Source of the DNA: Octopus sinensis
Taxonomy: Eukaryota
Direction of reading: 5' to 3'
Assembly (NCBI RefSeq): GCF_006345805.1
Contig: NC_042999.1
Location: 75,206,001 to 75,270,000 of the forward strand
DNA: 64,000 nt
Shown: positions 1 through 55,699 of the stretch, piece after piece
Layout of the letters: each line of letters opens with the position of its first letter
Position numbering within the stretch: position 1 is the stretch's first letter
Made by a program: the position numbers and the translations under genes
Notes under the pieces: generated by a model
Told to the model about the DNA's origin: nothing
The model's input: the letters and a program-made list of their open reading frames with translations, nothing else
The model's database searches: none

Positions 1-3000
1 ATAAAAGGGCTTAGTAAAATAAATTACTTTGCCGCATACTGAACTCATTAGAAATAGCAGCTAAAAAACTTTTTTAAGGCTATTTCTAATACTTAAAGAA
101 AATCTCTCTCATATATAGTGTTTGCATAATTTAACTCACAAAAGTTTGGGGGTAATGACATCGAAAAATCAAATGCTAAGGTTATTCGAGAACGTACGTT
201 TCAAGATTAGTCAAAACAACATTTCTATCATCGGCTCGGAAATTCCTTGGTTTGGATTTGGAAACACTGAAAATAAGAACATACCCTCTCGAAGATCTGC
301 TCCCAACTAACAGTGTCAACAAATTCAAAATAAGCAAGCGAAGAATCTCTGTTCTCCCCTTTCCACCAGCGTGGGTTAAAATCATCAAACTCTATGCTTA
401 TTTCGGTAAAGTCCGAAGCATTAATCAGAGGGAGATTAATTATAATTTCAACAATTGAGGGCAAAATTAATTAATTATTAATCAATTTCACCAAGTGTTC
501 AGTATGCAAAGGGACCATTCAAGGCGAATTCAAATTATTACATTATATAAAAGGGCTTAGTAAAATAAATTACTTTGCCGCATACTGAACTCATTAGAAA
601 TAGCAGCTAAAAAACTTTTTTAAGGCTATTTCTAATACTTAAAGAAAATCTCTCTCATATATAGTGTTTGCATAATTTAACTCACAAAAGTTTGGGGGTA
701 ATGACATCGAAAAATCAAATGCTAAGGTTATTCGAGAACGTACGTTTCAAGATTAGTCAAAACAACATTTCTATCATCGGCTCGGAAATTCCTTGGTTTG
801 GATTTGGAAACACTGAAAATAAGAACATACCCTCTCGAAGATCTGCTCCCAACTAACAGTGTCAACAAATTCAAAATAAGCAAGCGAAGAATCTCTGTTC
901 TCCCCTTTCCACCAGCGTGGGTTAAAATCATCAAACTCTATGCTTATTTCGGTAAAGTCCGAAGCATTAATCAGAGGGAGATTAATTATAATTTCAACAA
1001 TTGAGGGCAAAATTAATTAATTATTAATCAATTTCACCAAGTGTTCAGTATGCAAAGGGACCATTCAAGGCGAATTCAAATTATTACATTATATAAAAGG
1101 GCTTAGTAAAATAAATTACTTTGCCGCATACTGAACTCATTAGAAATAGCAGCTAAAAAACTTTTTTAAGGCTATTTCTAATACTTAAAGAAAATCTCTC
1201 TCATATATAGTGTTTGCATAATTTAACTCACAAAAGTTTGGGGGTAATGACATCGAAAAATCAAATGCTAAGGTTATTCGAGAACGTACGTTTCAAGATT
1301 AGTCAAAACAACATTTCTATCATCGGCTCGGAAATTCCTTGGTTTGGATTTGGAAACACTGAAAATAAGAACATACCCTCTCGAAGATCTGCTCCCAACT
1401 AACAGTGTCAACAAATTCAAAATAAGCAAGCGAAGAATCTCTGTTCTCCCCTTTCCACCAGCGTGGGTTAAAATCATCAAACTCTATGCTTATTTCGGTA
1501 AAGTCCGAAGCATTAATCAGAGGGAGATTAATTATAATTTCAACAATTGAGGGCAAAATTAATTAATTATTAATCAATTTCACCAAGTGTTCAGTATGCA
1601 AAGGGACCATTCAAGGCGAATTCAAATTATTACATTATATAAAAGGGCTTAGTAAAATAAATTACTTTGCCGCATACTGAACTCATTAGAAATAGCAGCT
1701 AAAAAACTTTTTTAAGGCTATTTCTAATACTTAAAGAAAATCTCTCTCATATATAGTGTTTGCATAATTTAACTCACAAAAGTTTGGGGGTAATGACATC
1801 GAAAAATCAAATGCTAAGGTTATTCGAGAACGTACGTTTCAAGATTAGTCAAAACAACATTTCTATCATCGGCTCGGAAATTCCTTGGTTTGGATTTGGA
1901 AACACTGAAAATAAGAACATACCCTCTCGAAGATCTGCTCCCAACTAACAGTGTCAACAAATTCAAAATAAGCAAGCGAAGAATCTCTGTTCTCCCCTTC
2001 CCACCAGCGTGGGTTAAAATCATCAAACTCTATGCTTATTTCGGTAAAGTCCGAAGCATTAATCAGAGGGAGATTAATTATAATTTCAACAATTGAGGGC
2101 AAAATTAATTAATTATTAATCAATTTCACCAAGTGTTCAGTATGCAAAGGGACCATTCAAGGCGAATTCAAATTATTACATTATATAAAAGGGCTTAGTA
2201 AAATAAATTACTTTGCCGCATACTGAACTCATTAGAAATAGCAGCTAAAAAACTTTTTTAAGGCTATTTCTAATACTTAAAGAAAATCTCTCTCATATAT
2301 AGTGTTTGCATAATTTAACTCACAAAAGTTTGGGGGTAATGACATCGAAAAATCAAATGCTAAGGTTATTCGAGAACGTACGTTTCAAGATTAGTCAAAA
2401 CAACATTTCTATCATCGGCTCGGAAATTCCTTGGTTTGGATTTGGAAACACTGAAAATAAGAACATACCCTCTCGAAGATCTGCTCCCAACTAACAGTGT
2501 CAACAAATTCAAAATAAGCAAGCGAAGAATCTCTGTTCTCCCCTTTCCACCAGCGTGGGTTAAAATCATCAAACTCTATGCTTATTTCGGTAAAGTCCGA
2601 AGCATTAATCAGAGGGAGATTAATTATAATTTCAACAATTGAGGGCAAAATTAATTAATTATTAATCAATTTCACCAAGTGTTCAGTATGCAAAGGGACC
2701 ATTCAAGGCGAATTCAAATTATTACATTATATAAAAGGGCTTAGTAAAATAAATTACTTTGCCGATCTTCGAGATCTTACTTTGCAGATCTTCGAGAGGG
2801 TATGTTCTTATTTTCAGTGTTTCCAAATCCAAACCAAGGAATTTCCGAGCCGATGATAGAAATGTTGTTTTGACTAATCTTGAAACGTACGTTCTCGAAT
2901 AACCTTAGCATTTGATTTTTCGATGTCATTACCCCCAAACTTTTGTGAGTTAAATTATGCAAACACTATATATGAGAGAGATTTTCTTTAAGTATTAGAA

Positions 3001-3634
3001 ATAGCCTTAAAAAAGTTTTTTAGCTGCTATTTCTAATGAGTTCAGTATGCGGCAAAGTAATTTATTTTACTAAGCCCTTTTATATAATGTAATAATTTGA
3101 ATTCGCCTTGAATGGTCCCTTTGCATACTGAACACTTGGTGAAATTGATTAATAATTAATTAATTTTGCCCTCAATTGTTGAAATTATAATTAATCTCCC
3201 TCTGATTAATGCTTCGGACTTTACCGAAATAAGCATAGAGTTTGATGATTTTAACCCACGCTGGTGGAAAGGGGAGAACAGAGATTCTTCGCTTGCTTAT
3301 TTTGAATTTGTTGACACTGTTAGTTGGGAGCAGATCTTCGAGAGGGTATGTTCTTATTTTCAGTGTTTCCAAATCCAAACCAAGGAATTTCCGAGCCGAT
3401 GATAGAAATGTTGTTTTGACTAATCTTGAAACGTACGTTCTCGAATAACCTTAGCATTTGATTTTTCGATGTCATTACCCCCAAACTTTTGTGAGTTAAA
3501 TTATGCAAACACTATATATGAGAGAGATTTTCTTTAAGTATTAGAAATAGCCTTAAAAAAGTTTTTTAGCTGCTATTTCTAATGAGTTCAGTATGCGGCA
3601 AAGTAATTTATTTTACTAAGCCCTTTTATATAAT
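1..3634. repeat. 546-bp tandem array (family 1) with terminal inverted segment; retrozyme-like, truncated by window start
   Basis: Unit starts recur at 1, 547, 1093, 1639, 2185, 2731, and the ORF track repeats with period 546. Forward copies end at 2764; 2784-3634 is ~1.5 units in reverse orientation; (TA)n follows. Confidence 0.97.
187..238 (-). ncRNA. Type I hammerhead ribozyme-like motif, variant core (one per 546-bp unit; + strand copies 2846-2897 and 3392-3443)
   Basis: Reads CGAG-CCGAUGA-U AGA..UCU U-GAAA-CGUACG-UU-CUCG: stem I 4 bp, U4C core, short stem II, palindromic stem III (AACGTACGTT). Confidence 0.62.
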
Positions 3635-3649
3635 TATATATATATATAT

Positions 3650-3705
<56 letters not shown>

Positions 3706-3728
3706 TACTACTACTACTACTACTTATA

Positions 3729-4650
3729 TAGGATGAAGTTTTTTTACTGAAAAATATTCCATCAAAAAAGGTCAAAATTTTAAGGTTAAAATTATAAATA
3801 AGGACTAAAGAAAATAATTTCTCTGACAACATGCTGATAACAGACTTTTAAATCGCCAGTTTCCACACATTATTTACTCGCTACAGAAAACACGTAGAGC
3901 TCAAAGCTAGGAAAGCCAACCAATAGAATTTTTGAAAAAAGTTCGTTATTTCTATATTGAATCAATTTCGGAATTAATCTCATAATAGATTTTTTTTCCT
4001 CTTCTATAGAAAATACGAAAAGACATAAATAAGATACTTAAATGCGCCCATAGAAAAAAGCCGAAACAAAAATCATGAGTACATATAAGTAGCCCAGATA
4101 TATCTAAAAATAAAATCCTTCGGTCAGCCTCAGCACACGTGTGAACTGTTCTCCACTACAGCTTATAGTGGTTACCAGTCCCTATAGCGAATAGTAATAA
4201 ATTTACTACTAATATAGGATGAATTGTTTTTACAGAAAAAAATTCCATCAAAAAATGTGGCAGCACATTAAAATACATTTAAGGTTAAAATTATAAACAA
4301 CTTATAAATAAGGGCCAAAAAAAATTATTTCTATGCCAATATGCTGATAGCAGACTTTTAAATCGTCAATTTCCACATATTATTTACTCGCTACAAAAAA
4401 CACGTAGAGCTCAAAGCGAGGAAAGCCAGCCAATAGAATTTTTTTTAAAAGTTCGTTATTTCTATATTGAAACTATTTCGGAATTAATCTCAAAATAGAT
4501 TTTTTCCTCTTCAGTAGAAAATACGAAAAGACATAAATAAGATACTTACATCAGCTCTACGTGTTTTCTGTAGCGAGTAAATAATATGTGGAAATTGACG
4601 ATTTAAAAGTCTGTTATCAGCATATTGGCATAGAAATAATTTTCTTTAGC

Positions 4651-4656
<6 letters not shown>
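3729..4656 (-). mobile_element. ~500-bp tandem element (family 3, ~1.7 units plus inverted end) with hammerhead motifs at 3949-4012 and 4459-4520
   Basis: Two diverged direct units followed by an inverted segment ~4552-4656 that abuts (TA)n. Further copies at 12133-13065 (+) and 18817-19750 (-). Confidence 0.8.
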
Positions 4657-4713
<57 letters not shown>

Positions 4714-4714
<1 letters not shown>

Positions 4715-5480
4715 GAGGGGCATTCAATAAGTAATGCCCCTGACCCACTTCCCATAGCAGTAGAGCAACGACACTTGCACAGTTATTAGTCTTCTTTTAC
4801 ATAGGAACCACCCAGAGTTACGCATTTCTCCCATCGTTTGATGCAGCTATAGAGACCGATTTTGTAGAAGACCCCAGGTTGGTCCTCCAACCACGACCTG
4901 AATTCAGAAATCAAGGCTGCATCATCTGGGAAACGCTTTCCATTCAAAAACAACTTCATGGGTGGGAAGAGGTGAAAATCCAAGGGTGCAAGGTCAGGAG
5001 AGAAGGGGGTTCGGGGAGGAGTTCATAGCCGCACGCCTGTGCTTCTGATCTGGCGACCATCGAGTTGTGGACCGGAGCGTTGTCCTGCAGGAGGAGGATG
5101 CCTTTGCTGATCTTGCCCCGCCTCTTGATTTTGATAGCTTCTCTTAATTTCCTCAAAAGTGAAGCATAATAGGCTCCTGTAATTGTGGTACCCTTGCCAA
5201 GAAATCTGTCATCACTACTCCGTCATATGGTGGGGCATCATTACCATAAGTTACTTTCATTTCATCAAAAGTCTCCCGTGGTGTGCGTCCTTTCAAATAT
5301 AAAACCCGGATCACTGCTCGTCACTCAACAGGCTCCATTTCACACTTGACTCAGTTGAAACACCTGTAAATCAGAAACCACAATTAGTTTAGAGCTGTAA
5401 TTTGCCACGTAATCTATAGAGATATAAATAATTGCACATGCAAAATTGGGTCAGGGGCATTACTTACTCAACGTCCCTCG
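4714..5480 (-). mobile_element. Internally deleted mariner element (copy 1)
   Basis: TIRs CGAGGGGCATTCAATAAGTAATGCCCCTGACCC / GGGTCAGGGGCATTACTTACTCAACGTCCCTCG in a TA context; transposase fragments (LLQDNAPVH); ~0.5-kb deletion relative to 23880-25165. Confidence 0.92.
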
Positions 5481-5602
5481 TATATATATATACATATATA
5501 TATATATAATGTGTGTATATATCTATATTTATATATATATATATATATACGGGTGTGTGTGTTTGTATTTATAATCTGTATACATAAGTATATATAATGC
5601 GC

Positions 5603-5690
<88 letters not shown>

Positions 5691-5989
5691 AATGCGTATA
5701 TGTATATATATAAAATACAACCTGGGACAAGAACGCAAAACATTTAGAAGACGATACAAAAAAATACGGTCGGGTCATTCGAATCCTTCAATTTTCAGTC
5801 AAGAACCGGCTCATCCTCGCAATTTCGGCTGATTAATCTTGAGATTGCTCCAATTTGGCCAGCCCCAAGGAAAAACTAAGCTAAGCGCATTAGATTCCTT
5901 GGAAAAATGCTTCGAATGTATACGAAACAAGGACGGAAAAACGATGTTACACGAATATAAATACAAAAATAATACGAAACAACAACAAC

Positions 5990-6021
<32 letters not shown>

Positions 6022-6397
6022 CAAGAGGACCTCACAACAGGCGTCTTTCGACTTAGACGAATTAAACTCAGCTGGCGTGTTAGGAATGTGCCTTGGGGCA
6101 GACAAAAAAAATGTTGATGTTACTACGACCGCTATCAGACGAAAAAGGCCAGTAGTCGGTCAGTCAGTCACGTGTGAAGGGAAGAGAGAGGAAAAGAGGG
6201 ACAGAGGAATTAAGGAGTAGGAGAAGAGAGAGAGAGCGAAAAAAAGACAAGGACAAAGTGAAGTGCAAAGTAAGAAAGGCAAAGGATTTGTTGGAGAGGG
6301 GGGGGAGAGACGCTGTTGTAGAGTCGTACCAAGTTTAGAGAAATGTGTACTTACATATAAGAGAAAGGGTACGTTATTAAGTAGTTGTCCTTAATTG

Positions 6398-6450
<53 letters not shown>

Positions 6451-6992
6451 CATATACATGTATGTATACTAGTATTATAACCCAATTCCATTCGGGTCTA
6501 CTCGGGCCACGTTTTAAAAAATGAGGAATTTAGCCCTAGATGTCACGCCTTTCAATTGAGCAAACTCAAAGTTGCCATGCAAACTCTCCAGCACTTGTAT
6601 GCAAATTTTCAGACCACATTTACTAACACTTTTGCCCGCACAACTGCTGCGCTTTTCACAAATATATAGTAGACTTACAAAGATACCCGGCGTTGTTTGA
6701 GATTAAAATGGCATAGTTCTTTATTGTTTTACTTGTTTTGGTATTATAACCCAATTTCATTCGGGTCTATTCGGGCCACATTTTAAAAGAAGAGGAAATT
6801 TTCCCCAGAGGCCACGCCTTTCAATTGAGCAAACTCAAAGTTGCCATGCAAACTCCCTAGCACTTTTAACATAGGTGTGCAAATCTTCAGCACAATCCGA
6901 CCACATATGCACCTGCCCCAATGCACATTCCTAACACGCCAGCTGAGTTTAATTCGTCTAAGTCGAAAGACGCCTGTTGTGAGGTCCTGTTA

Positions 6993-7039
<47 letters not shown>

Positions 7040-7313
7040 GTTATTATTATTTTTATTTTTATTGTTTTTTCGTATTATTTTTGTATTTATATTCGTGTAA
7101 CATCATTTTCCCGTCCTTTTTCGTATACATTCGAAGCTTTTCCAAGGAATCTAATGCGTTTAGCTTAGTTTTTCCTTGGGGCTGGCCAGATTGGAACAAT
7201 CTCAAGATTAATCAGCCGAAATTGCGAGGATGATCCGGTTCTTGACTGAAGATTGAAGGCTTCGTCCCTGTTTTTGTATCGTCTTCTAAATGTTTTGCGT
7301 TTTTGTCACAGTT

Positions 7314-7379
<66 letters not shown>

Positions 7380-7597
7380 TCAATATAGGGTGGCAAAAAA
7401 TTTTGTAGAATTTTTTTGCCACCAGCGGCCTAGTGGGAAAAAATTAAATAGTCATAGACCATTTTCAAGTTCAACATCACAATCAAGGAACGGCCATAAT
7501 AGGCCATTCACCCACTAGAAATAACAGCCAAAGCTTCAACCGCAAAATAACATCAATTCCGTAAACCAGGAGAAAATTAAAAAACATTTACCCTGTA

Positions 7598-7704
7598 ATT
7601 TCTTATACGATTCACCGTTTCATCTACTGTTTAATGGTAAACTAACCTGATTAAATTAAATCAAGCCAATCTTCCATAGGCCCTTAGAATCATCAGTAAG
7701 AAAT
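7598..7704 (-). ncRNA. Type I hammerhead ribozyme motif with extended stem II (also 8085-8191, 8572-8678, 9059-9165, 9546-9652)
   Basis: Minus strand: AUUUCUUA-CUGAUGA-U UCUA...UAGA U-GAAA-CGGU(GA/GC)AUCG-UA-UAAGAAAU. 8-bp stem I, intact core, GUA cleavage triplet. Confidence 0.8.
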
Positions 7705-10095
7705 AGCCAAGTCGGAACAGATATTTTCACGAGGCATTTTCGTCCCTGCCTCGGCAATATCTGACCTAAAATTTTCAAATCATCGCACTCGCGCCAAATT
7801 TATCGGCAGCAAATAAATATACGCCGCCGATTCCATTACGGAATTAACCAGAAAATTCATAATTAATCAATATAGGGTGGCAAAAAATTTTGTAGAATTT
7901 TTTTGCCACCAGCGGCCTAGTGGGAAAAAATTAAATAGTCATAGACCATTTTCAAGTTCAACATCACAATCAAGGAACGGCCATAATAGGCCATTCACCC
8001 ACTAGAAATAACAGCCAAAGCTTCAACCGCAAAATAACATCAATTCCGTAAACCAGGAGAAAATTAAAAAACATTTACCCTGTAATTTCTTATACGATGC
8101 ACCGTTTCATCTACTGTTTAATGGTAAACTAACCTGATTAAATTAAATCAAGCCAATCTTCCATAGGCCCTTAGAATCATCAGTAAGATATAGCCAAGTC
8201 GGAACAGATATTTTCACGAGGCATTTCCGTCCCTGCCTCGGCAATATCTGACCTAAAATTTTCAAATCATCGCACTCGCGCCAAATTTATCGGCAGCAAA
8301 TAAATATACACCGCCGATTCCATTACGGAATTAACCAGAAAATTCATAATTAATCAATATAGGGTGGCAAAAAATTTTGTAGAATTTTTTTGCCACCAGC
8401 GGCCTAGTGGGAAAAAATTAAATAGTCATAGACCATTTTCAAGTTCAACATCACAATCAAGGAACGGCCATAATAGGCCATTCACCCACTAGAAATAACA
8501 GCCAAAGCTTCAACCGCAAAATAACATCAATTCCGTAAACCAGGAGAAAATTAAAAAACATTTACCCTGTAATTTCTTATACGATTCACCGTTTCATCTA
8601 CTGTTTAATGGTAAACTAACCTGATTAAATTAAATCAAGCCAATCTTCCATAGGCCCTTAGAATCATCAGTAAGAAATAGCCAAGTCGGAACAGATATTT
8701 TCACGAGGCATTTTCGTCCCTGCCTCGGCAATATCTGACCTAAAATTTTCAAATCATCGCACTCGCGCCAAATTTATCGGCAGCAAATAAATATACGCCG
8801 CCGATTCCATTACGGAATTAACCAGAAAATTCATAATTAATCAATATAGGGTGGCAAAAAATTTTGTAGAATTTTTTTGCCACCAGCGGCCTAGTGGGAA
8901 AAAATTAAATAGTCATAGACCATTTTCAAGTTCAACATCACAATCAAGGAACGGCCATAATAGGCCATTCACCCACTAGAAATAACAGCCAAAGCTTCAA
9001 CCGCAAAATAACATCAATTCCGTAAACCAGGAGAAAATTAAAAAACATTTACCCTGTAATTTCTTATACGATGCACCGTTTCATCTACTGTTTAATGGTA
9101 AACTAACCTGATTAAATTAAATCAAGCCAATCTTCCATAGGCCCTTAGAATTATCAGTAAGAAATAGCCAAGTCGGAACAGATATTTTCACGAGGCATTT
9201 TCGTCCCTGCCTCGGCAATATCTGACCTAAAATTTTCAAATCATCGCACTCGCGCCAAATTTATCGGCAGCAAATAAATATACGCCGCCGATTCCATTAC
9301 GGAATTAACCAGAAAATTCATAATTAATCAATATAGGGTGGCAAAAAATTTTGTAGAATTTTTTTGCCACCAGCGGCCTAGTGGGAAAAAATTAAATAGT
9401 CATAGACCATTTTCAAGTTCAACATCACAATCAAGGAACGGCCATAATAGGCCATTCACCCACTAGAAATAACAGCCAAAGCTTCAACCGCAAAATAACA
9501 TCAATTCCGTAAACCAGGAGAAAATTAAAAAACATTTACCCTGTAATTTCTTATACGATGCACCGTTTCATCTACTGTTTAATGGTAAATTAACCTGATT
9601 AAATTAAATCAAGCCAATCTTCCATAGGCCCTTAGAATCATCAGTAAGAAATAGCCAAGTCGGAACAGATATTTTCACGAGGCATTTTCGTCCCTGCCTC
9701 GGCAATATCTGACCTAAAATTTTCAAATCATCGCACTCGCGCCAAATTTATCGGCAGCAAATAAATATACGCCGCCGATTCCATTACGGAATTAACCAGA
9801 AAATTCATAATTAATCAATATAGGGTGGCAAAAAATTTTGTAGAATTTTTTTGCAACCAGCGGACTAGTGGGAAAAAATTAAATAGTCATAGACAATTTT
9901 CAAGTTCAACATCACAATCAAGGAACGGCCATAATAGGCAATTCACCCACTAGAAATAACAGCGAAAGCTTCAACCGCAAAATTTATTTGCTGCCGATAA
10001 ATTTGGCGCGAGTGCGATGATTTGAAAATTTTAGGTCAGATATTGCCGAGGCAGGGACGGAAATGCCTCGTGAAAATATCTGTTCCGACTTGGCT

Positions 10096-10202
10096 ATTTC
10101 TTACTGATGATTCTAAGGGCCTATGGAAGATTGGTTTGATTTAATTTAATCAGGTTAATTTACCATTAAACAGTAGATGAAACGGTGCATCGTATAAGAA
10201 AT
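10096..10202 (+). ncRNA. Type I hammerhead ribozyme motif in the inverted end of the 487-bp array
   Basis: atttctta CTGATGA ttcta...tagat GAAA cggtgcatcg TA taagaaat, read directly on the + strand. Confidence 0.8.
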
Positions 10203-10319
10203 TACAGGGTAAATGTTTTTTAATTTTCTCCTGGTTTACGGAATTGATGTTATTTTGCGGTTGAAGCTTTGGCTGTTATTTCTAGTGGGTGTATGGCCTA
10301 TTATGGCCGTTCCTTGATT

Positions 10320-10428
<109 letters not shown>

Positions 10429-10781
10429 CGGCGTACGTACCCTTTCTCTTATATGTAAGTACACATTTCTCTAAACTTGGTACGACTCTACAACAGTGTC
10501 TCTCCCCCTCTCCAACAAATCCTTTGCCTTTCTTACTTTGCACTTCACTTTGTCCTTGTCTTTTTTTCGCTCTCTCTCTCTTCTCCTACTCCTTAATTCC
10601 TCTGTCCCTCTTTTCCTCTCTCTTCCCTTCACACGTGACTGACTGACCGACTACTGGCCTTTTTCGTCTGATAGCGGTCGTAGTAACATCAACATTTTTT
10701 TTGTCTGCCCCAAGACACATTCCTAACACGCCAGCTGAGTTTAATTCGTCTAAGTCGAAAGACGCCTGTTGTGAGGTCCTC

Positions 10782-10819
<38 letters not shown>

Positions 10820-11117
10820 GTTGTTGTTGTTTCGTATTATTTTTGTATTTATATTCGTGTAACATCGTTTTTCCGTCCTTGTTTCGTATACATGCGAAGC
10901 ATTTTTCCAAGGAATCTAATGCGCTTAGCTTAGTTTTTCCTTGGGGCTGGCCAAATTGGAGCAATCTCAAGATGAATCAGCCGAAATTGCGAGGATGATC
11001 CGGTTCTTGACTGAAAATGGAAGGATTCGAATGACCCGTCCGTATTTTTTGTATCGTCTTCTAAATGTTTTGCGTTCTTGTCCCAGTTTGTATTTTATAT
11101 ATATACATATACGCATT

Positions 11118-11211
<94 letters not shown>

Positions 11212-11329
11212 GCGCATTATATATACTTATGTATACAGATTATAAATACAAACACACACACCCGTATATATATATATATAAATATAGATATATACACACA
11301 TTATATATATATATATGTATATATATATA

Positions 11330-12096
11330 CGAGGGACGTTGAGTAAGTAATGCCCCTGACCCAATTTTGCATGTGCAATTATTTATATCTCTATAGATTA
11401 CGTGGCAAATTACAGCTCTAAACTAATTGTGGTTTCTGATTTACAGGTGTTTCAACTGAGTCAAGTGTGAAATGGAGCCTGTTGAGTGACGAGCAGTGAT
11501 CCGGGTTTTATATTTGAAAGGACGCACACCACGGGAGACTTTTGATGAAATGAAAGTAACTTATGGTAATGATGCCCCACCATATGACGGAGTAGTGATG
11601 ACAGATTTCTTGGCAAAGGGTACCACAATTACAGGAGCCTATTATGCTTCACTTTTGAGGAAATTAAGAGAAGCTATCAAAATCAAGAGGCGGGGCAAGA
11701 TCAGCAAAGGCATCCTCCTCCTGCAGGACAACGCTCCGGTCCACAACTCGATGGTCGCCAGATCAGAAGCACAGGCGTGCGGCTATGAACTCCTCCCCGA
11801 ACCCCCTTCTCTCCTGACCTTGCACCCTTGGATTTTCACCTCTTCCCACCCATGAAGTTGTTTTTGAATGGAAAGCGTTTCCCAGATGATGCAGCCTTGA
11901 TTTCTGAATTCAGGTCGTGGTTGGAGGACCAACCTGGGGTCTTCTACAAAATCGGTCTCTATAGCTGCATCAAACGATGGGAGAAATGCGTAACTCTGGG
12001 TGGTTCCTATGTAAAAGAAGACTAATAACTGTGCAAGTGTCGTTGCTCTACTGCTATGGGAAGTGGGTCAGGGGCATTACTTATTGAATGCCCCTC

Positions 12097-12097
<1 letters not shown>
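11330..12097 (+). mobile_element. Internally deleted mariner element (copy 2)
   Basis: Same TIRs and deletion as 4714-5480; ORFs 11496-11855 and 11828-12025 are transposase fragments. Confidence 0.92.
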
Positions 12098-12138
<41 letters not shown>

Positions 12139-12270
12139 GGGTTAAAGAAAATTATTTCTAGGCCAATATGCTGATAACAGACTTTTAAATCGTCAATTTC
12201 CACATATTATTTACTCGCTACAGAAAACACGTAGAGCTGATGTAAGTATCTTATTTATGTCTTTTCGTAT

Positions 12271-12332
12271 TTTCTACTGAAGAGGAAAAAATCTATTTTG
12301 AGATTACTTCCGAAATAGTTTCAATATAGAAA
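12271..12332 (+). ncRNA. Type I hammerhead ribozyme motif of family 3 (second, core-mutated copy at 12780-12842)
   Basis: tttcta CTGAAGA ggaa..ttcc GAAA tagtttcaa TA tagaaa; the sister copy has stem III ttga-t-tcaa intact but CTGAAGA>TAGAAGA. Confidence 0.78.
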
Positions 12333-13094
12333 TAACGAACTTTTAAAAAAAATTCTATTGGCTGGCTTTCCTCGCTTTGAGCTCTACGTGTTTTTTGTAG
12401 CGAGTAAATAATATGTGGAAATTGACGATTTAAAAGTCTGCTATCAGCATATTGGCATAGAAATAATTTTTTTTTGGCCCTTATTTATAAGTTGTTTATA
12501 ATTTTAACCTTAAATGTATTTTAATGTGCTGCCACATTTTTTGATGGAATTTTTTTCTGTAAAAACAATTCATCCTATATTAGTAGTAAATTTATTACTA
12601 TTCGCTATAGGGACTGGTAACCACTATAAGCTGTAGTGGAGAACAGTTCACACGTGTGCTGAGGCTGACCGAAGGATTTTATTTTTAGATATATCTGGGC
12701 TACTTATATGTACTCATGATTTTTGTTTCGGCTTTTTTCTATGGGCGCATTTAAGTATCTTATTTATGTCTTTTCGTATTTTCTATAGAAGAGGAAAAAA
12801 ATCTATTATGAGATTAATTCCGAAATTGATTCAATATAGAAATAACGAACTTTTTTCAAAAATTCTATTGGTTGGCTTTCCTAGCTTTGAGCTCTACGTG
12901 TTTTCTGTAGCGAGTAAATAATGTGTGGAAATTGGCGATTTAAAAGTCTGTTATCAGCATGTTGTCAGAGAAATTATTTTCTTTAGTCCTTATTTATAAT
13001 TTTAACCTTAACATTTTGACCTTTTTTGATGGAATATTTTTCAGTAAAAAAACTTCATCCTATATAAGTAGTAGTAGTAGTAGTTATATATATA

Positions 13095-13179
<85 letters not shown>

Positions 13180-13265
13180 TGTATGTATATATATGTATTA
13201 CTCTCTTTTTTACTCTTTTTACTTGTTTCAGTCATTTGACTGCGGCCATGCTGGAGCACCGCCTT

Positions 13266-13310
<45 letters not shown>

Positions 13311-13738
13311 CTCAAACACACACGCACACACACATATTTATATGTAAATTAACGCAATAAATATCTGATTGATAATAACTATTATCATGAATGTGCGGTG
13401 GTGGTGGGCGATAATAATTCACCGTTCTGTGATGGGAATATCTAAACTTCATGAGAGTGAAACGTTTTTTCGACACAATATAATTATTTACTATTTTATT
13501 CCTCTCCATTAAACACACTTGCGGCTGTGAACACTTTCTCCCTCTAGATACAGACAGACGTACAGAAAGAGTGAGGCGGTGGGAGAAAGAAAGACAGAGA
13601 GAGAAAGAGAGAGAGAGAGAGAGATTGGGAGCTGTCAAACGTCGTTATAGAGAGAATGTCGATGGAAAGGAGGAAAAAGAGAGATCGGGGAAGAAAGGGT
13701 GATAGTCGAAAGGGAGAATCAACAACATTTGTCAATTT

Positions 13739-13786
13739 AGCCAATCAACAGACAGCGTGGCATTAGCAGCTTGTTACTATGACAAC
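13739..13786 (+). promoter_or_regulatory. Putative NF-Y CCAAT box plus RFX X-box promoter module (mirror copy 18191-18238)
   Basis: AGCCAATCA at 13739-13747; GTTACTATGACAAC at 13773-13786 fits X-box consensus RTHNYYWTRRNRAC; locally CpG-richer, non-microsatellite sequence. Confidence 0.4.
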
Positions 13787-14213
13787 CGCACACTGTGTTG
13801 TGGTTCACTGTTGTCTGTGGCGCTGTTGTCTACGTTGATTTTTCCGATTTGATGCTTCGCACCACGAGATTCTTTTCAACCGCATGTTTTGTTTTAATTT
13901 GTCTGTGTTAGTATATTACATATTTCCTCTGCTTCTATGTGATTCATTGACTCAAATAGCTGGATTTATGATTTCACGAGGTTAATTCTATTTATAAAAA
14001 ATTAAATTAGGAGTAGGGACATTGTGGAACAGAGAAACTATGGATGGTGCAGATAATCTGACATTACTTTTGAATTCTGCTTGCAATAACATGTAAGGTA
14101 CAGGTATTCTTTGGGACAAATTCTTTGTTGACGAGTGTTATTCTTACCATAGTTTACAAATCCAAGCATGAAAACAGTACTCAACTTTGGAGTTTTGGAG
14201 ATGGATGTTCCCT

Positions 14214-14251
<38 letters not shown>

Positions 14252-15240
14252 GTACACACACTTATATATTAATGATGTACACAAACACATGACAGGTATA
14301 CATATTTCTGAAATATGCATAAAGTAAACATATTAAGACAAATATATTGATATAAGATTTTTTTTTAAATCATAAAAAACAATAAAATCAATGACGAGAC
14401 AAAAGAAACAGTAAGATTATATGTGTTAATTTTATTAGCTTTTATGTTTATTTAGAAACCTTCAATGAAATTTGGTATTTCTATTTATTTAAGAAACCTA
14501 CAATGAACATGACAGACGCTAAACTATAGATTTTACTGGGTGCAACCTTAAAGTTGACATCGCTCCGCTAAGTGCAGAAGATTTCTGTCTCTCTATTGAC
14601 TAAAAATACCCAGTTTTTTTTATTTTTAAACCTCTGTAACTTTTTTCTCCAAGTTTTCTTTCCACAACATCATGACTTCAAAGCAATGAGACTGGAGGGC
14701 TATATTATTATAGCCGATTTTCAGATTTTTTTTTACTTCTTTTTAAAAAATGCATATTTTGCTGATGCAGAAACCTAGATCCTGATACACCTGAACAGAC
14801 TTAGATCACTACAGAAACATTATTGCGATAATAGGTATAAAAACACTTAGAGCCATCAGATAATACATATCTATGCGTAAATTTTATTTCCTTTTTAGAG
14901 GGGTATATGATAAAATAATATAATGTTTATGTAGAAAAACAAACATAACTGCTCAAGCAAAATAGGTGTATGCTGCATGTGGGTTTGTAGAGAGTTCATT
15001 TGCAAAATCAGATATTACATTTTACATACAGTATGTTGAGGAAACTTTCATAGGGTTCCAAATAAAAATCGAGATATAATAAATGTGCATTTTGTTTCAC
15101 ACAAATTTATTGAGTCATGATTACAATATCAAAACGTAGATTTAAAAATTATCGTTGAGCCAAGAAAGAAGCATGTACTGACAATATACGTTTTTGCATG
15201 TTTTTAATTGACTTGAAAATTTCTTACGTAATTGAATGAA

Positions 15241-15347
15241 TCAAAAATTAAAAATGATTCCTTGATTGATGAATTCTGATTGGATCCTTGCATCCATTCT
15301 TTCACTTTGTTCCACTGTTAACCATTTTTTCCATGTGTCTACTTTAC
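15241..15347 (-). pseudogene. Orphan duplicate of sulfotransferase terminal exon (acceptor AG intact)
   Basis: Encodes [35 protein letters not shown], identical to exon 33265-33371; no upstream exons in this orientation. Confidence 0.85.
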
Positions 15348-15403
15348 CTATAAATATGACGGAAACAGGTATTATGTGGAAAACGGAAACATGCATTGAT
15401 ATA

Positions 15404-15437
<34 letters not shown>

Positions 15438-15446
15438 CATTCATGA

Positions 15447-15750
15447 AGGTGCATGGCTTTGTGGTTAAGGCATTCGGCTCATGATCTTAAGGTTGTCAGT
15501 TCAAGTCCCTTCGACGAACAAGATGCTTTATTTCATGTTGCTCCAAGCCACTCAGCTAGCAAAATGAGTTGAACCTACATTTCAAGGGTCAGCATTGTCA
15601 AAATCTGTGTCATGCCAGTTCTCCCTGAGAACTACGTTAAGGGTACACGTGTCTGTGGTGTGCTCAGCTATTTGCACGTTAATTTCACGAGCAGGTAATT
15701 CCATTTATTGGATCCACTGGAACCCTCGGTGTCGTAACCGACAGATTGCC
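15447..15750 (+). mobile_element. tRNA-derived SINE (counterpart at ~32870-33175 on - strand)
   Basis: A-box-like TGGCTTTGTGG, B-box-like GTTCAAGTCC; body shared with the SINE at 51993-52370. Confidence 0.65.
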
Positions 15751-15842
15751 AGTTATACATACACACGCACACAAACACACACACACACACACACACACGC
15801 ACGCACACACACACGAACATACACACGCACACACACACACAC

Positions 15843-15883
<41 letters not shown>

Positions 15884-16061
15884 TACATATATGTGTGTGT
15901 GTTTGTGTAGTATTATTAAGTAAGAAAATGGAGAGTTTCGACAGATATAAATTAATTCATTAATATTTTGATATTGAAGAGATAGTTTTCAGCAATATAA
16001 TATAGTAAACCAGTGGTTCTTGGATCAAACGATCACCATAAGAGTGACTATACACACACAC

Positions 16062-16147
<86 letters not shown>

Positions 16148-16570
16148 ACAGTCTTAAATAAATACACATACACGCACCCACACACATATAACCATTTAAA
16201 CGAAAAGAAAATAGAGATGTAGCATTTAATAAAATTTTATTATCTGCAAAAGTCAAACAGTCTCTTAAAGCTCTTTCAACTAAGCCTTAAAAGATTGAAT
16301 AGCAATTATTAAAATCATTATACTAGAAAAAATCTCTTCAGAGGAGTAGAAAAAGATATATTGTTAGGTATTTATGTGTTGTATTTTAGAATCATCACAG
16401 CAGACTGCTGTGATGATTCTAAAATCGATAAACCGATTCCTTATAGGATTTCCCAATGAAATCGCCAGCAAAGCCATGCACCTTCATGAATGTATGTATG
16501 TATGTATGTATGTATATATCAATGCATGTTTCCGTTTTCCACATAATACCTGTTTCCGTCATATTTATGG

Positions 16571-16677
16571 GTAAAGTAGACACATGGAAAAAATGGTTAA
16601 CAGTGGAACAAAGTGAAAGAATGGATGCAAGGATCCAATCAGAATTCATCAATCAAGGAATCATTTTTAATTTTTGA
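16571..16677 (+). pseudogene. Orphan duplicate of sulfotransferase terminal exon (acceptor mutated AG>GG)
   Basis: Same peptide as exon 33265-33371; preceded by ATATTTATGG instead of ATATTTATAG. Confidence 0.85.
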
Positions 16678-17679
16678 TTCATTCAATTACGTAAGAAATT
16701 TTCAAGTCAATTAAAATCATGCAAAAACGTATATTGTCAGTACATGCTTCTTTCTTGGCTCAACGATAATTTTTAAATCTACGTTTTGATATTGTAATCA
16801 TGACTCAATAAATTTGTGTGAAACAAAATGCACATTTATTATATCTCGATTTTTATTTGGAACCCTATGAAAGTTTCCTCAACATACTGTATGTAAAATG
16901 TAATATCTGATTTTGTAAATGAACTCTCTACAAACCCACATGCAGCATACACCTATTTTGCTTGAGCAGTTATGTTTGTTTTTCTACATAAACATTATAT
17001 TATTTTATCATATACCCCTCTAAAAAGGAAATAAAATTTACGCATAGATATGTATTATCTGATGGCTCTAAGTGTTTTTATACCTATTATCGCAATAATG
17101 TTTCTGTAGTGATCTAAGTCTGTTGAGGTGTATCAGGATCTAGGTTTCTGCATCAGCAAAATATGCATTTTTTAAAAAGAAGTAAAAAAAAATCTGAAAA
17201 TCGGCTATAATAATGTAGCCCTCCAGTCTCATTGCTTTGAAGTCATGATGTTGTGGAAAGAAAACTTGGAGAAAAAAGTTACAGAGGTTTAAAAATCGAA
17301 AAAACTGGGTATTTTTAGTCAATAGAGAGACAGAAATCTTCTGCACTTAGCGGAGCGATGTCAACTTTAAGGTTGCACCCAGTAAAATCTATAGTTTAGC
17401 GTCTGTCATGTTCATTGTAGGTTTCTTAAATAAATAGAAATACCAAATTTCATTGAAGGTTTCTAAATAAACATAAAAGCTAATAAAATTAACACATATA
17501 ATCTTACTGTTTCTTTTGTCTCGTCATTGATTTTATTGTTTTTTATGATTTAAAAAAAATCTTATATCAATATATTTGTCTGAATATGTTTACTTTATGC
17601 ATATTTCAGAAATATGTATACCTGTCATGTGTTTGTGTACATCATTAATATATAAGTGTGTGTACGTGCGTGTGTGTGT

Positions 17680-17724
<45 letters not shown>

Positions 17725-17727
17725 GTG

Positions 17728-17761
<34 letters not shown>

Positions 17762-19741
17762 AGGGGACATCCATCTCCAAAACTCCAAAGTTGAGTGTAC
17801 TGCTTTCATGCTTGGATTTGTAAACTATGGTAAGAATAACACTCGTCAACAAAGAATTTGTCCCAAAGAATACCTGTACCTTACATGTTATTGCAAGCAG
17901 AATTCAAAAATAATGTCAGATTATCTGCACCATCCATAGTTTCTCTGTTCCACAATGTCCCTACTCCTAATTTAAATTTTTATAAATAGAATTAACCTCG
18001 TGAAATCATAAATCCAGCTATTTGAGTCAATGAATCACATAGAAGCAGAGGAAATATGTAATATACTAACACAGACAAATTAAAACAAAACATGCGGTTG
18101 AAAAGAATCTCGTGGTGCGACACATCAAATCGGAAAAATCAACGTAGACAACAGCGCCACAGACAACAGTGAACCACAACACAGTGTGCGGTTGTCATAG
18201 TAACAAGCTGCTAATGCCACGCTGTCTGTTGATTGGCTAAATTGACAAATGTTGTTGATTCTCCCTTTCGACTATCACCCTTTCTTCCCCGATCTCTCTT
18301 TTTCCTCCTTTCCATCGACATTCTCTCTATAACGACGTTTGACAGCTCCCAATCTCTCTCTCTCTTTCTCTTTCTCTCTCTGTCTTTCTTTCTCCCACCG
18401 CCTCACTCTTTCTGTACGTCTGTCTGTATCTAGAGGGAGAAAGTGTTCACAGCCGCAAGTGTGTTTAATGGAGAGGAATAAAATAGTAAATAATTATATT
18501 GTGTCGAAAAAACGTTTCACTCTCATGAAGTTTAGATATTCCCATCACAGAACGGTGAATTATTATCGCCCACCACCACCGCACATTCATGATAATAGTT
18601 ATTATCAATCAGATATTTATTGCGTTAATTTATATATAAATATGTGTGTGTGCGTGTGTGTTTGAGTGAATATATATATATATATATCAAAGGCGGTGCT
18701 CCAGCATGGCCGCAGTCAAATGACTGAAACAAGTAAAAAGAGTAAAAAAGAGAGTAATACATATATATACATACATGCATATATATATATATACTACTAC
18801 TACTACTACTACTTATATAGGATGAAGTTTTTTTACTGAAAAATATTCCATCAAAAAAGGTCAAAATTTTAAGGTTAAAATTATAAATAAGGGCTAAAGA
18901 AAATAATTTCTCTGACAACATGCTGATAACAGACTTTTAAATCGCCAATTTCCACACATTATTTACTCGCTACAGAAAACACGTAGAGCTCAAAGCTAGG
19001 AAAGCCAACCAATAGAATTTTTGAAAAAAGTTCGTTATTTCTATATTGAATCAATTTCGGAATTAATCTCATAATAGATTTTTTTCCTCTTCTATAGAAA
19101 ATACGACAAGACATAAATAAGATACTTAAATGCGCCCATAGAAAAAAGCCAAAACAAAAATCATGAGTACATATAAGTAGCCCAGATATATCTAAAAATA
19201 AAATCCTTCGGTCAGCCTCAGCACACGTGTGAACTGTTCTCCACTACAGCTTATAGTGGTTACCAGTCCCTATAGCGAATAGTAATAAATTTACTACTAA
19301 TATAGGATGAATTGTTTTTACAGAAAAAAATTCCATCAAAAAATGTGGCAGCACATTAAAATACATTTAAGGTTAAAATTATAAACAACTTATAAATAAG
19401 GGCCAAAAAAAAATTATTTCTATGCCAATATGCTGATAGCAGACTTTTAAATCGTCAATTTCCACATATTATTTACTCGCTACAAAAAACACATAGAGCT
19501 CAAAGCGAGGAAAGCCAGCCAATAGAATTTTTTTAAAAAGTTCGTTATTTCTATATTGAAACTATTTCGGAATTAATCTCAAAATAGATTTTTTCCTCTT
19601 CAGTAGAAAATACGAAAAGACATAAATAAGATACTTACATCAGCTCTACGTGTTTTCTGTAGCGAGTAAATAATATGTGGAAATTGACGATTTAAAAGTC
19701 TGTTATCAGCATATTGGCATAGAAATAATTTTCTTTAGCCC

Positions 19742-19824
<83 letters not shown>

Positions 19825-19825
<1 letters not shown>

Positions 19826-20592
19826 GAGGGGCATTCAATAAGTAATGCCCCTGACCCACTTCCCATAGCAGTAGAGCAACGACACTTGCACAGTTATTAG
19901 TCTTCTTTTACATAGGAACCACCCAGAGTTACGTATTTCTCCCATCGTTTGATGCAGCTATAGAGACCGATTTTGTAGAAGACCCCAGGTTGGTCCTCCA
20001 ACCACGACCTGAATTCAGAAATCAAGGCTGCATCATCTGGGAAACGCTTTCCTTTCAAAAACAACTTCATGGGTGGGAAGAGGTGAAAATCCAAGGGTGC
20101 AAGGTCAGGAGAGAAGGGGGTTCGGGGAGGAGTTCATAGCCGCACGCCTGTGCTTCTGATCTGGCGACCATCGAGTTGTGGACCGGAGCGTTGTCCTGCA
20201 GGAGGAGGATGCCTTTGCTGATCTTGCCCCGCCTCTTGATTTTGATAGCTTCTCTTAATTTCCTCAAAAGTGAAGCATAATAGGCTCCTGTAATTGTGGT
20301 ACCCTTTGCCAAGAAATCTGTCATCACTACTCCGTCATATGGTGGGGCATCATTACCATAAGTTACTTTCATTTCATCAAAAGTCTCCCGTGGTGTGCGT
20401 CCTTTCAAATATAAAACCCGGATCACTGCTCGTCACTCAACAGGCTCCATTTCACACTTGACTCAGTTGAAACACCTGTAAATCAGAAACCACAATTAGT
20501 TTAGAGCTGTAATTTGCCACGTAATCTATAGAGATATAAATAATTGCACATGCAAAATTGGTTCAGGGGCATTACTTACTCAACGTCCCTCG
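19825..20592 (-). mobile_element. Internally deleted mariner element (copy 3)
   Basis: Same TIRs and deletion as copies 1 and 2. Confidence 0.92.
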
Positions 20593-20718
20593 TATATATA
20601 TATACATATATATATATATATAATGTGTGTATATATCTATATTTATATATATATATATATATATACGGGTGTGTGTGTTTGTATTTATAATCTGTATACA
20701 TAAGTATATATAATGCGC

Positions 20719-20800
<82 letters not shown>

Positions 20801-21099
20801 TTATATATATATCTAATGCGTATATGTATATATATAAAATACAAACTGGGACAAGAACGCAAAACATTTAGAAGACGATACAAAAAATACGGACGGGTCA
20901 TTCGAATCCTTCAATTTTCAGTCAAGAACCGGATCATCCTCGCAATTTCGGCTGATTAATCTTGAGATTGCTCCAATTTGGCCAGCCCCAAGGAAAAACT
21001 AAGCTAAGCGCATTAGATTCCTTGGAAAAATGCTTCGAATGTATACGAAACAAGGACGGAAAAACGATGTTACACGAATATAAATATAAAAATAATACG

Positions 21100-21169
<70 letters not shown>

Positions 21170-21550
21170 TAATAATAATAATAATAACAACAAGAGGACC
21201 TCACAACAGGCGTCTTTCGACTTAGACGAATTAAACTCAGCTGGCGTGTTAGGAATGTGCCTTGGGGCAGAGAAAAAAAATGTTGATGTTACTACGACCG
21301 CTATCAGACGAAAAAGGCCAGTAGTCGGTCAGTCAGTCACGTGTGAAGGGAAGAGAGAGGAAAAGAGGGACAGAGGAATTAAGGAGTAGGAGAAGAGAGA
21401 GAGAGCGAAAAAAAAGACAAGGACAAAGTGAAGTGCAAAGTAAGAAAGGCAAAGGATTTGTTGGAGAGGGGGGGGAGAGACACTGTTGTAGAGTCGTACC
21501 AAGTTTAGAGAAATGTGTACTTACATATAAGAGAAAGGGTACGTACGCCG

Positions 21551-21603
<53 letters not shown>

Positions 21604-21870
21604 CAAACTGTGACAAAAACGCAAAACATTTAGAAGACGATACAAAAAACAGGGACGAAGCCTTCAATCTTCAGTCAAGAACCGGATCATCCTCGCAATT
21701 TCGGCTGATTAATCTTGAGATTGTTCCAATCTGGCCAGCCCCAAGGAAAAACTAAGCTAAGCGCATTAGATTCCTTGGAAAAAGCTTCGAATGTATACGA
21801 AACAAGGACGGGAAAATGATGTTACACGAATATAAATACAAAAATAATACGAAAAAACAATAAAAATAAA

Positions 21871-21938
<68 letters not shown>

Positions 21939-22474
21939 TAACAGGACTTCACAACAGGCGTCTTTCGACTTAGACGAATTAAACTCAGCTGGCGTGTTAG
22001 GAATGTGCATTGGGGCAGGTGCATATGTGGTCGGATTGTGCTGAAGATTTGCACACCTATGTTAAAAGTGCTAGGGAGTTTGCATGGCAACTTTGAGTTT
22101 GCTCAATTGAAAGGCGTGGCCTCTAGGGAAAATTTCCTCTTCTTTTAAAATGTGGCCCGAATAGACCCGAATGAAATTGGGTTATAATACCAAAACAAGT
22201 AAAACAATAAAGAACTATGCCATTTTAATCTCAAACAACGCCGGGTATCTTTGTAAGTCTACTATATATTTGTGAAAAGCGCAGCAGTTGTGCGGGCAAA
22301 AGTTTTAGTAAATGTGGTCTGAAAATTTGCATACAAGTGCTGGAGAGTTTGCATGGCAACTTTGAGTTTGCTCAATTGAAAGGCGTGACCTCTAGGGCTA
22401 AATTCCTCATTTTTGAAAACGTGGCCCGAGTAGACCCGAATGGAATTGGGTTATAGTACTAGTATACATACATG

Positions 22475-22560
<86 letters not shown>

Positions 22561-55415: not shown

Positions 55416-55699
55416 TCCCTTTCCTTATTGGTAATGTATAATACAATATTCCCCTGAAGGACAAAAAATAAAAACAGAATGCAGTACACACTTCACCAGC
55501 TCAGAAGTGAAGCCAGTGATGCAGTAGAAAGTTACTTGAAACTATCAGATGTCAAATCATAATCGTAGTGGTAATGATGATGGTGATGAATGTTACCTTA
55601 CCTCAGTTTATGAGAGATGAGTTTGTGTAGAAACTCTGATTGTAATAGCAAAAATGAGGTTAGACCTTTAAGAAAGACATCTCGCCCAGTAATGGTTCA

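What the first reader, a model, noticed from the sequence alone, without database searches (positions are those of the whole stretch)
187..238. Variant hammerhead in the 546-bp unit: CCGAUGA core, U-U at 10.1-11.1, GUU site, palindromic stem III
Seen on the - strand of every unit: CGAG CCGAUGA UAGA..UCUU GAAA CGUACG UU CUCG. Three departures from consensus co-occur in near-identical, apparently young copies. The self-complementary AACGUACGUU would let two adjacent units form a dimeric hammerhead, as is established for minimal tandem hammerheads. The same U-U apposition at the base of stem II appears in the 487-bp family, hinting at a lineage-specific ribozyme subtype (inference).
Basis: partly seen in the sequence, partly recalled or inferred. 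Interest (0 to 1): 0.72.

Follow-up and report, generated by a model that had tools for sequence, protein, structure and literature searches.

The report
Core-mutant hammerhead in a spreading retrozyme
This is a hammerhead-shaped motif, predicted to be a self-cutting RNA, in a young protein-free jumping repeat; about a thousand copies carry a changed core letter reported to slow such ribozymes, yet the repeat kept spreading, likely pasted in by a Penelope-type enzyme, which makes it a natural test of how much self-cutting these elements need.

Summary
The motif is there as described: a type I hammerhead in each 546-bp unit (five on −, two on +). It is not a lineage-specific subtype. GUU is within consensus; U·U at 10.1–11.1 and palindromic stem III have published precedents, and 10.1–11.1 drifts freely among relatives. 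Only U4C is a true core change. It is derived: 2,686 U4 versus 1,004 C4 matches genome-wide. Intermediates give the order: stem I U-A→U·G, then U4C, then U·G→C-G, so the stem was repaired after the core changed. Two unrelated hammerhead families in this genome are also mostly C4 (69 and 89 of the first 100 matches). The unit is a non-LTR retrozyme. It inserts into (TA)n as two tail-out arms, one ending at each of two fixed sites about 100 nt apart (71 of 71 scorable insertions across both families), the Penelope 'tail' signature; the scan found this layout before on other families. Substitutions shared by all units and seamless junctions point to repeated copying of one monomer, likely a circle. 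Best reading: an attenuated, dimer- or protein-assisted ribozyme. Cleavage is untested and no partner element was found.

The parts
187..238 (-). Type I hammerhead motif, first copy (further − copies every 546 bp: 733-784, 1279-1330, 1825-1876, 2371-2422)
228..234 (-). Core CCGAUGA; C4 at 233 is derived from U4
235..238 (-). Stem I 5' strand CGAG; C238 repaired a U·G pair to C-G after U4C
187..190 (-). Stem I 3' strand CUCG; predicted cut between 191 and 190
   Evidence: cleavage itself untested
203..227 (-). Stem II: U·U base, 3 bp, 3x3 internal loop, upper helix 220-218/212-210
192..199 (-). Palindromic stem III ACGUACGU (2 bp + tetraloop as monomer, 8 bp as dimer)
191..736 (-). One 546-nt cut-to-cut monomer, predicted to fold as a strongly paired circle (z about −6, 25 shuffles)
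539..544 (-). Priming site A (unit position about 193-198): one of two fixed 3' ends of insertions
441..446 (-). Priming site B (unit position about 296); the stretch between A and B is the roughly 100-nt tail
1..2764 (-). Left arm, 5.3 units; begins 106 bases before the window at site B joined to (TA)n
2765..2783 (.). 19-bp linker at the inversion junction, made of short copies of the two arm ends
2784..3634 (+). Inverted right arm, 1.6 units, two hammerhead copies (2846-2897, 3392-3443), ends at site A in (TA)n
7372..10324 (.). Separate 487-bp hammerhead family insertion with the same two-arm, two-site layout (canonical CUGAUGA core, GUA site)

Best explanation
The motif is a type I hammerhead with a recently changed core letter (U4C), predicted to cut slowly and mainly as a dimer or with protein help, inside a 546-nt non-coding retrozyme that is likely copied into (TA)n by a Penelope-like reverse transcriptase/endonuclease. 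Steps: (1) tandem copies are transcribed (inferred); (2) adjacent palindromic stems III pair and the ribozyme cuts after GUU, releasing unit-length RNA that is ligated into a circle (inferred by analogy with axolotl and mussel retrozymes); (3) in the monomer a competing hairpin is predicted to bury GAAA and stem III, which would keep the circle closed; (4) a Penelope-type enzyme nicks both strands of (TA)n and starts one cDNA at site A and one at site B, each running round the template for up to 14 units (the end pattern is shown, the enzyme is inferred); (5) the two 5' ends join through 0-5 nt microhomology, giving tail-out inverted arms (shown).
For: Fold kept across subfamilies 76-97% identical: 89.5% of cells paired, 4 pairs changed on both sides (7 of 500 shuffles as high; slid controls 0-1). 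Ladder of exact patterns: U4+U·G 39, C4+U·G 462, C4+U-A 4, U4+C-G 0; the tree nests C4/C-G (100/99) inside C4 (93/91) inside U4, so stem I was repaired after U4C. C4 is also the majority in two unrelated hammerhead families, and U4C is reported to keep enough activity in vivo for viroid infectivity (Perreault 2011). Two-arm insertions with both ends at a fixed site are A+B in 29 of 29 (C4), 14 of 14 (U4 relatives) and 28 of 28 (487 family), never A+A or B+B. Penelope enzymes start at two internal sites that define the tail, cut both strands, and assist their hammerhead (Frangieh 2024). Intact young RT+GIY-YIG elements ending in (TA)n exist in G000. Monomer bottleneck: 14 of 30 multi-unit insertions carry a substitution in every full unit, 7 of them private to that insertion (one in 13 of 13 units); 4 of 30 show partial patterns; the cut-site junction has 0 substitutions and 3 indels within 5 nt over about 241 units.
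Against: No cleavage assay and no mapped RNA end. Predicted cost of reaching the active monomer fold is high in this lineage (8.7 kcal/mol; U4 sister 11.7; older subfamilies 2.0-5.4), stem II has pairing probability 0.03 in the isolated motif, and the local fold is no better than shuffles (z 0.26). Stem I also forms in the inactive fold, and three other changes on the C4 branch (unit positions 59, 65, 421) improve pairing elsewhere, so the repair may serve the whole fold and not catalysis. Three of the five covariation measures were unremarkable (43-134 of 500 shuffles) and percent paired was at the shuffle mean; most aligned rows were selected for an intact core. Eight of nine Xenopus retrozyme dimers showed no cleavage in vitro (Li 2026), and hammerhead mutants did not affect Penelope insertion in vitro. 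No autonomous element homologous to the unit was found among the loci fetched. Inner arm ends are not enriched at the cut site (4 of 62, expected 2.3), which fits a circle or an uncut multimer equally.
Confidence: 0.62

Rival explanations
1. The C4 hammerhead is effectively dead. The element still spreads through Penelope machinery, unit-length templates arise another way (for example protein cleavage or back-splicing), and stem I is kept only as part of the overall RNA fold.
For: High predicted cost of the active fold and a competing hairpin; structure-improving changes elsewhere on the same branch; hammerhead mutants do not block Penelope insertion in vitro and no reads end at the site in that study; Naiads thrive without canonical hammerheads; C4 arrays are no shorter than U4 arrays (100 matches in 36 versus 48 clusters, hand count).
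Against: All other core letters are unchanged in the C4 lineage and its U4 relatives; position 4 is a pyrimidine in 197 of 200 listed matches of two other families, which fits tolerance of C and not loss of constraint; the monomer bottleneck persists in the C4 subfamily.
Confidence: 0.25
2. C4 units are cut in trans by U4 relatives: the shared palindrome and compatible stem I let a U4 catalytic strand pair with a C4 substrate strand, so the C4 subfamily is a cheater on its own family.
For: U4 relatives share ACGUACGU and outnumber C4 copies; UGAG can pair with CUCG, a pairing seen in cis in 501 matches.
Against: It needs two different RNAs to meet, while tandem neighbours are far closer; repair of the C4 unit's own stem I 5' strand would bring no gain under this model; the 452-match family has few U4 copies to rely on.
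Confidence: 0.07
3. The arrays are ordinary satellite DNA grown in place by unequal crossover from single insertions, as proposed for vertebrate retrozymes, and the hammerhead plays no part in array formation.
For: Model stated in Li et al. 2026; tandem organisation.
Against: Arrays are dispersed over many contigs, about 0.25% diverged, bounded by the same two ends, and both inverted arms share substitutions (for example L041, L043, L058).
Confidence: 0.04

Closest known systems
Metazoan non-LTR retrozymes (Cervera and de la Pena 2020, PMC7229834; Li, Clavereau and Pollet 2026, bioRxiv 10.64898/2026.07.22.740005)
   Same: Non-coding tandem units, one type I hammerhead per unit, low GC, strongly paired predicted circle, dispersed arrays, co-occurring Penelope-like elements.
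   Different: Unit of 546 nt is longer than the 150-450 bp described in 2020 (within the 51-972 bp of 2026); core is CCGAUGA; insertions show two arms with two fixed ends, not described in the parts of those papers that I read; circular RNA not shown here.
Axolotl HHR_Amex2 (PMC7229834)
   Same: U·U at the base of helix II, two-pair helix III with a tetraloop; cleaves weakly as monomer (22% in 1 h) and better as dimer.
   Different: No U4C mentioned for it in the text read; it keeps loop 1-loop 2 contacts, which were not identified here.
[quoted passage not shown]
   Same: Short stem I, small palindromic helix III, predicted dimer, hammerhead upstream of two 3' ends, inverted 5'-truncated arm, AT-rich target.
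   Different: No ORF; tail about 100 nt instead of 30-40; lacks the G10.1-C11.1 pair typical of those motifs; the core variant reported there is U3-A8, not C4.
Viroid U4C hammerhead variant (Ambros and Flores 1998, seen only as cited in Perreault 2011, PMC3088659)
   Same: Same core change, said to lower activity in vitro but to allow infectivity.
   Different: There a viroid variant; here fixed in a genomic subfamily of about 1,000 copies and the majority state in two more families.

Membership tests
Type I hammerhead ribozyme | Three helices round the core with ends in stem I | tested here: met
Type I hammerhead ribozyme | Strict core C3 U4 G5 A6 N7 G8 A9 / G12 A13 A14 / A15.1-U16.1 H17 | tested here: not met
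   U4 is C at window 233; all other positions match, and U4 relatives meet it in full
Type I hammerhead ribozyme | Standard pair at 10.1-11.1 | tested here: not met
   U·U; standard pair in only 4 of 18 related rows; published exceptions exist
Type I hammerhead ribozyme | Match to an Rfam hammerhead model | tested here: not met
Type I hammerhead ribozyme | Covariation in stems | tested here: met
   4 pairs with two-sided change, 7 of 500 shuffles as high; other measures not exceptional; ordered U-A to U·G to C-G in stem I
Type I hammerhead ribozyme | Site-specific self-cleavage | not testable with these tools
   needs a bench assay
Non-LTR retrozyme | Non-coding tandem units each with a type I hammerhead, dispersed in the genome | tested here: met
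   no frame of 100 aa or more in 1-3634
Non-LTR retrozyme | Strongly self-paired predicted circle | tested here: met
   z −6.1, −5.6, −3.5 for three subfamilies, 25 shuffles each; 16 pairs with two-sided change in a 10-row circular consensus fold, no control run
Non-LTR retrozyme | Accumulation of monomeric circular RNA | not testable with these tools
   only assembled contigs were offered
Penelope-mobilised element | Two fixed 3' ends (tail), inverted 5'-truncated arm, (TA)n target | tested here: met
   compared
Penelope-mobilised element | Homology to the pLTR of an autonomous partner | tested here: inconclusive
   none among about 70 GIY-YIG loci fetched out of 5,029 candidates
Autonomous Penelope-like element | RT plus GIY-YIG ORF | tested here: not met

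The most novel reading that the evidence does not exclude
U4C is a functional, repeatedly adopted 'slow' hammerhead class in Penelope-linked elements: weakening the ribozyme (C4, U·U base, competing hairpin) is favoured because it keeps the RNA circle closed while a dimeric Penelope enzyme primes it at two sites at once, and thousands of such C4 hammerheads are invisible to the CUGANGA descriptors used in all the surveys read here.
Probability: 0.3. Interest if true: 0.75.

Novelty: new variant of a known kind. Interest (0 to 1): 0.52.

Why it matters
The role of the hammerhead in Penelope-like elements and animal retrozymes is stated to be open. This family supplies an ordered natural series of four near-identical alleles (U4/U-A, U4/U·G, C4/U·G, C4/C-G), each of which has transposed, so cleavage rate can be set against transposition success directly. 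If C4 cores work, hammerhead censuses that reject any core change undercount: the three C4 families here amount to roughly 5,000 motifs by extrapolation. The strict A+B pairing of arm ends supports two-site, two-strand priming by one Penelope complex on a retrozyme template, where published support is co-occurrence and pLTR homology.

Tried and rejected
Rfam: no hammerhead match. Chimera of an autonomous element with a 546 array at L052 or L067: rejected, microsatellite and other DNA lie between. Partner search: the young 781-aa family has a tail of about 35 nt and no similarity to the unit; other families fetched showed none either; only 150 of 5,029 GIY-YIG candidates were scored. Linear cut monomers as main template: inner ends not enriched at the cut (4 of 62; 2 of 64 in the 487 family). 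Template jumping with untemplated bases at the cut: junctions seamless, though clean jumping is not excluded. Shared U·U subtype: rejected. CpG decay as the source of U4 copies: 0 matches of U4 with the C-G stem. Expression: no RNA holder listed; contigs of runs only guessed to be RNA cover the unit but cannot show ends, strand or level. The 'no stem III' energy variant failed for three of five rows through a constraint clash and is not used. Not held: Lünse 2017 (PMC5785218), Ambros and Flores 1998, Nelson and Uhlenbeck 2008, Arkhipova 2017. Supplements were not opened; the hammerhead alignments of Cervera 2014/2020 and Lünse 2017 could already list C4 cores.

Full report
OBSERVATION. The − strand of 187-238 reads as a type I hammerhead: stem I CGAG/CUCG, core CCGAUGA, stem II with U·U then three pairs, GAA, stem III A-C-GUAC-G-U, U17, predicted cut between 191 and 190. 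The window holds five − copies in a 546-bp array and two + copies in an inverted arm. No Rfam hammerhead model matches. The window is G000:C3:75206001-75270000 of a 2.7-Gb genome; that it is an octopus is my guess from recalled repeat types and comes from no call.

WHICH DEPARTURES ARE REAL. H17 may be A, C or U, so GUU is consensus (Perreault 2011, PMC3088659, passages and section 8). The same paper reports natural U10.1-U11.1 and says this mismatch supports more activity than other mispairs; axolotl HHR_Amex2 has it together with a two-pair helix III and cleaves better as a dimer (PMC7229834, parts 2-4 of 6). Small palindromic helices III are typical of Penelope-linked hammerheads (PMC4209133, parts 1-2 of 4). 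Among 18 distinct relatives the 10.1-11.1 position is a standard pair in 4 and not in 14; the 487 family has A-U and U·U forms. A shared subtype is therefore not supported. U4C is the one real core change; Perreault cites a viroid U4C variant with much lower activity in vitro but enough in vivo (primary paper not held).

HISTORY OF U4C. Exact patterns give 2,686 U4 and 1,004 C4 matches, controls 0. The window's unit nests in a U4 clade (100/100) on a branch of 0.027 with 11 polarised substitutions. Intermediates: U4 with U·G in stem I, 39 matches; C4 with U·G, 462; C4 with U-A, 4; U4 with C-G, 0; about 540 C4/C-G copies remain by subtraction. A tree of 31 units nests C4/C-G (100/99) within C4 (93/91) within U4 (bootstrap not fully settled). 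So stem I went U-A to U·G, then U4C arose, then U·G became C-G, one of about six changes on that last branch. My rough post hoc chance for that is 1-3%. The caveat is that stem I also forms in the inactive fold and other changes on the branch improve pairing elsewhere. Two tandem units at L276/L277 carry a separate U4C in another subfamily.

C4 ELSEWHERE. A scanner with position 4 free found 58 distinct T, 19 C, 2 G and 0 A motifs in 1.36 Mb of fetched loci, against 1 in reversed sequence; 9 of the 19 C motifs are variants of this family. Two unrelated families were then counted genome-wide: 5,413 matches (first 100: 69 C, 31 T) and 452 matches (first 100: 89 C, 8 T, 3 A) (hand counts). Both lie 70-180 nt upstream of (TA)n. 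The patterns were written from C4 copies, so these families were chosen for C4, and I did not build their trees.

FOLD. On the 18-row alignment 89.5% of cells pair and 4 pairs change on both sides (7 of 500 shuffles as high; slid controls 0-1); the other measures were not exceptional, and most rows were selected on an intact core. Stem II has an upper helix beyond a conserved 3x3 loop. The cut-to-cut monomer folds as a circle at z −6.1; two older subfamilies give −5.6 and −3.5. In the C4 unit the best fold keeps stem I but replaces stems II and III by a hairpin that buries GAAA. Cost of the active monomer fold: 2.0, 3.3, 5.4 kcal/mol in older subfamilies, 11.7 in the U4 sister, 8.7 in C4. A dimer fold is cheaper than two monomers in all four cases tested (17.1 versus 23.1 for C4). 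These are nearest-neighbour figures without tertiary contacts.

INSERTION ANATOMY. I mapped 39 fetched regions, chosen from the best of 301 hits and so biased to young, full-length copies, plus the window's own insertion. Of 31 two-arm insertions, 29 end at site A (unit position about 198) on one arm and site B (about 296) on the other, none A+A or B+B; one was open and one ended elsewhere. All 11 single arms but one open case end at A or B. U4 relatives: 14 of 15, one other. The 487 family, sites 130 and 234: 28 of 32, four with one end elsewhere. Outer ends join (TA)n; inner ends join mostly through 0-5 nt overlaps and fall at random with respect to the cut site. Penelope-like elements show inverted arms, a 30-40 bp tail at one end and (TA)n targets (Craig 2021, PMC8557442, passages), and the purified anole enzyme cuts both strands, starts at two internal sites that define the tail, is predicted to be a dimer, and is needed for its hammerhead to cut (Frangieh 2024, PMC11167929, parts 1-2 of 4). 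G000 has intact RT+GIY-YIG elements about 99% identical to each other, with their own tail of about 35 nt, but none fetched resembles the unit. The scan had already reported this two-site layout for other families of this genome; I tested it afresh on these two.

TEMPLATE. Of 30 insertions with two or more full units, 14 carry a substitution in every unit, 7 private to the insertion (L052: 13 of 13 units; L058: 8 of 8, both arms); 4 show partial patterns. Arms reach 14 units. The cut-site junction is clean over about 241 units. This points to repeated copying of one monomer and implies that unit-length template is still made in the C4 subfamily. A circle is the simplest source; clean template jumping is not excluded. 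It does not fit growth in place by unequal crossover, the model given in Li 2026 (bioRxiv 10.64898/2026.07.22.740005, parts 1-3 of 5).

MECHANISM. Shown: motif, allele order, end pattern, array homogeneity. Inferred: transcription, dimer cleavage, circularisation, Penelope enzyme. I put the retrozyme and Penelope-mobilisation reading at about 0.9, and residual self-cleavage of the C4 form at about 0.65.

NOVELTY. Searches: hammerhead+U4C+natural gave one paper, Perreault 2011; CCGANGA none; CCGAUGA one listing, on opsin therapeutics; Penelope+twin priming+tail+inverted one listing, a review of human elements; retrozyme+hammerhead+cephalopod only Craig 2021. An Octopus vulgaris repeat annotation has no occurrence of hammerhead or ribozyme in its main text (PMC13282606, passages). 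Reviews PMC6765202, PMC6155905 and PMC7761336 were seen as passages. Lünse 2017, the paper most likely to list such variants, was not available, and supplements were not opened, so C4 in Penelope hammerheads may be in print. Verdict: a new variant of a known kind. Each oddity has precedent; what is new is a successful genomic lineage with fixed U4C, an ordered allelic series, and recurrence in other families. Interest 0.52.

Noticed in passing
window 3718-4661 and its copies at 12130-13073 and 18807-19750: A further AT-rich element with a roughly 490-bp internal repeat, an inverted arm and a weak hammerhead-like motif, inside a 2.8-kb block that is present three times in the window, once inverted.
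   Followed up: no
window 3627-22532: Nested large duplications and inversions (2.8 kb, 2.4 kb, 1 kb; 95-98% identical) with breakpoints in (TA)n, flanking the 487-family insertion; cause unexplained.
   Followed up: no
L161:3532-5874 and L162-L165: Young Penelope-like family: 781-aa RT+GIY-YIG frame, an upstream 479-aa frame in some copies, a tail of about 35 nt, and by eye a U3-A8-type hammerhead near its 3' end.
   Followed up: partly
L265-L274: Two minimal-hammerhead families with mostly C4 cores; L271 is a two-arm insertion whose arms end about 70 and 142 nt past the motif start.
   Followed up: partly
window 100-350, runs X17 and X6: Contigs show only or mostly A>G and T>C differences and a loose end that reads like A-to-G hyper-editing; would fit double-stranded RNA from the inverted arms, but run type is not on record and no matched DNA run exists.
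   Followed up: partly
546 unit positions 246-296 and 487 unit positions 181-234: Both families have a GGUG-opening hairpin about 19 nt before site B and a similar AT-rich run up to it; a candidate shared recognition signal, seen by eye.
   Followed up: no
unit positions 146-239 (window 591-498, − strand): An 11-bp stem that encloses priming site A in a single-stranded loop, with a C-G to U-A change in the older subfamily.
   Followed up: partly
window 27976-28641, 44835-45281, 63161-64000: Two sulfotransferase-domain exons and an intronless PIG-M mannosyltransferase frame.
   Followed up: partly
window 24001-24447, 31056-31679, 54152-55492: Fragments of a mariner-type transposase, a Pif1 helicase and a reverse transcriptase.
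   Followed up: partly
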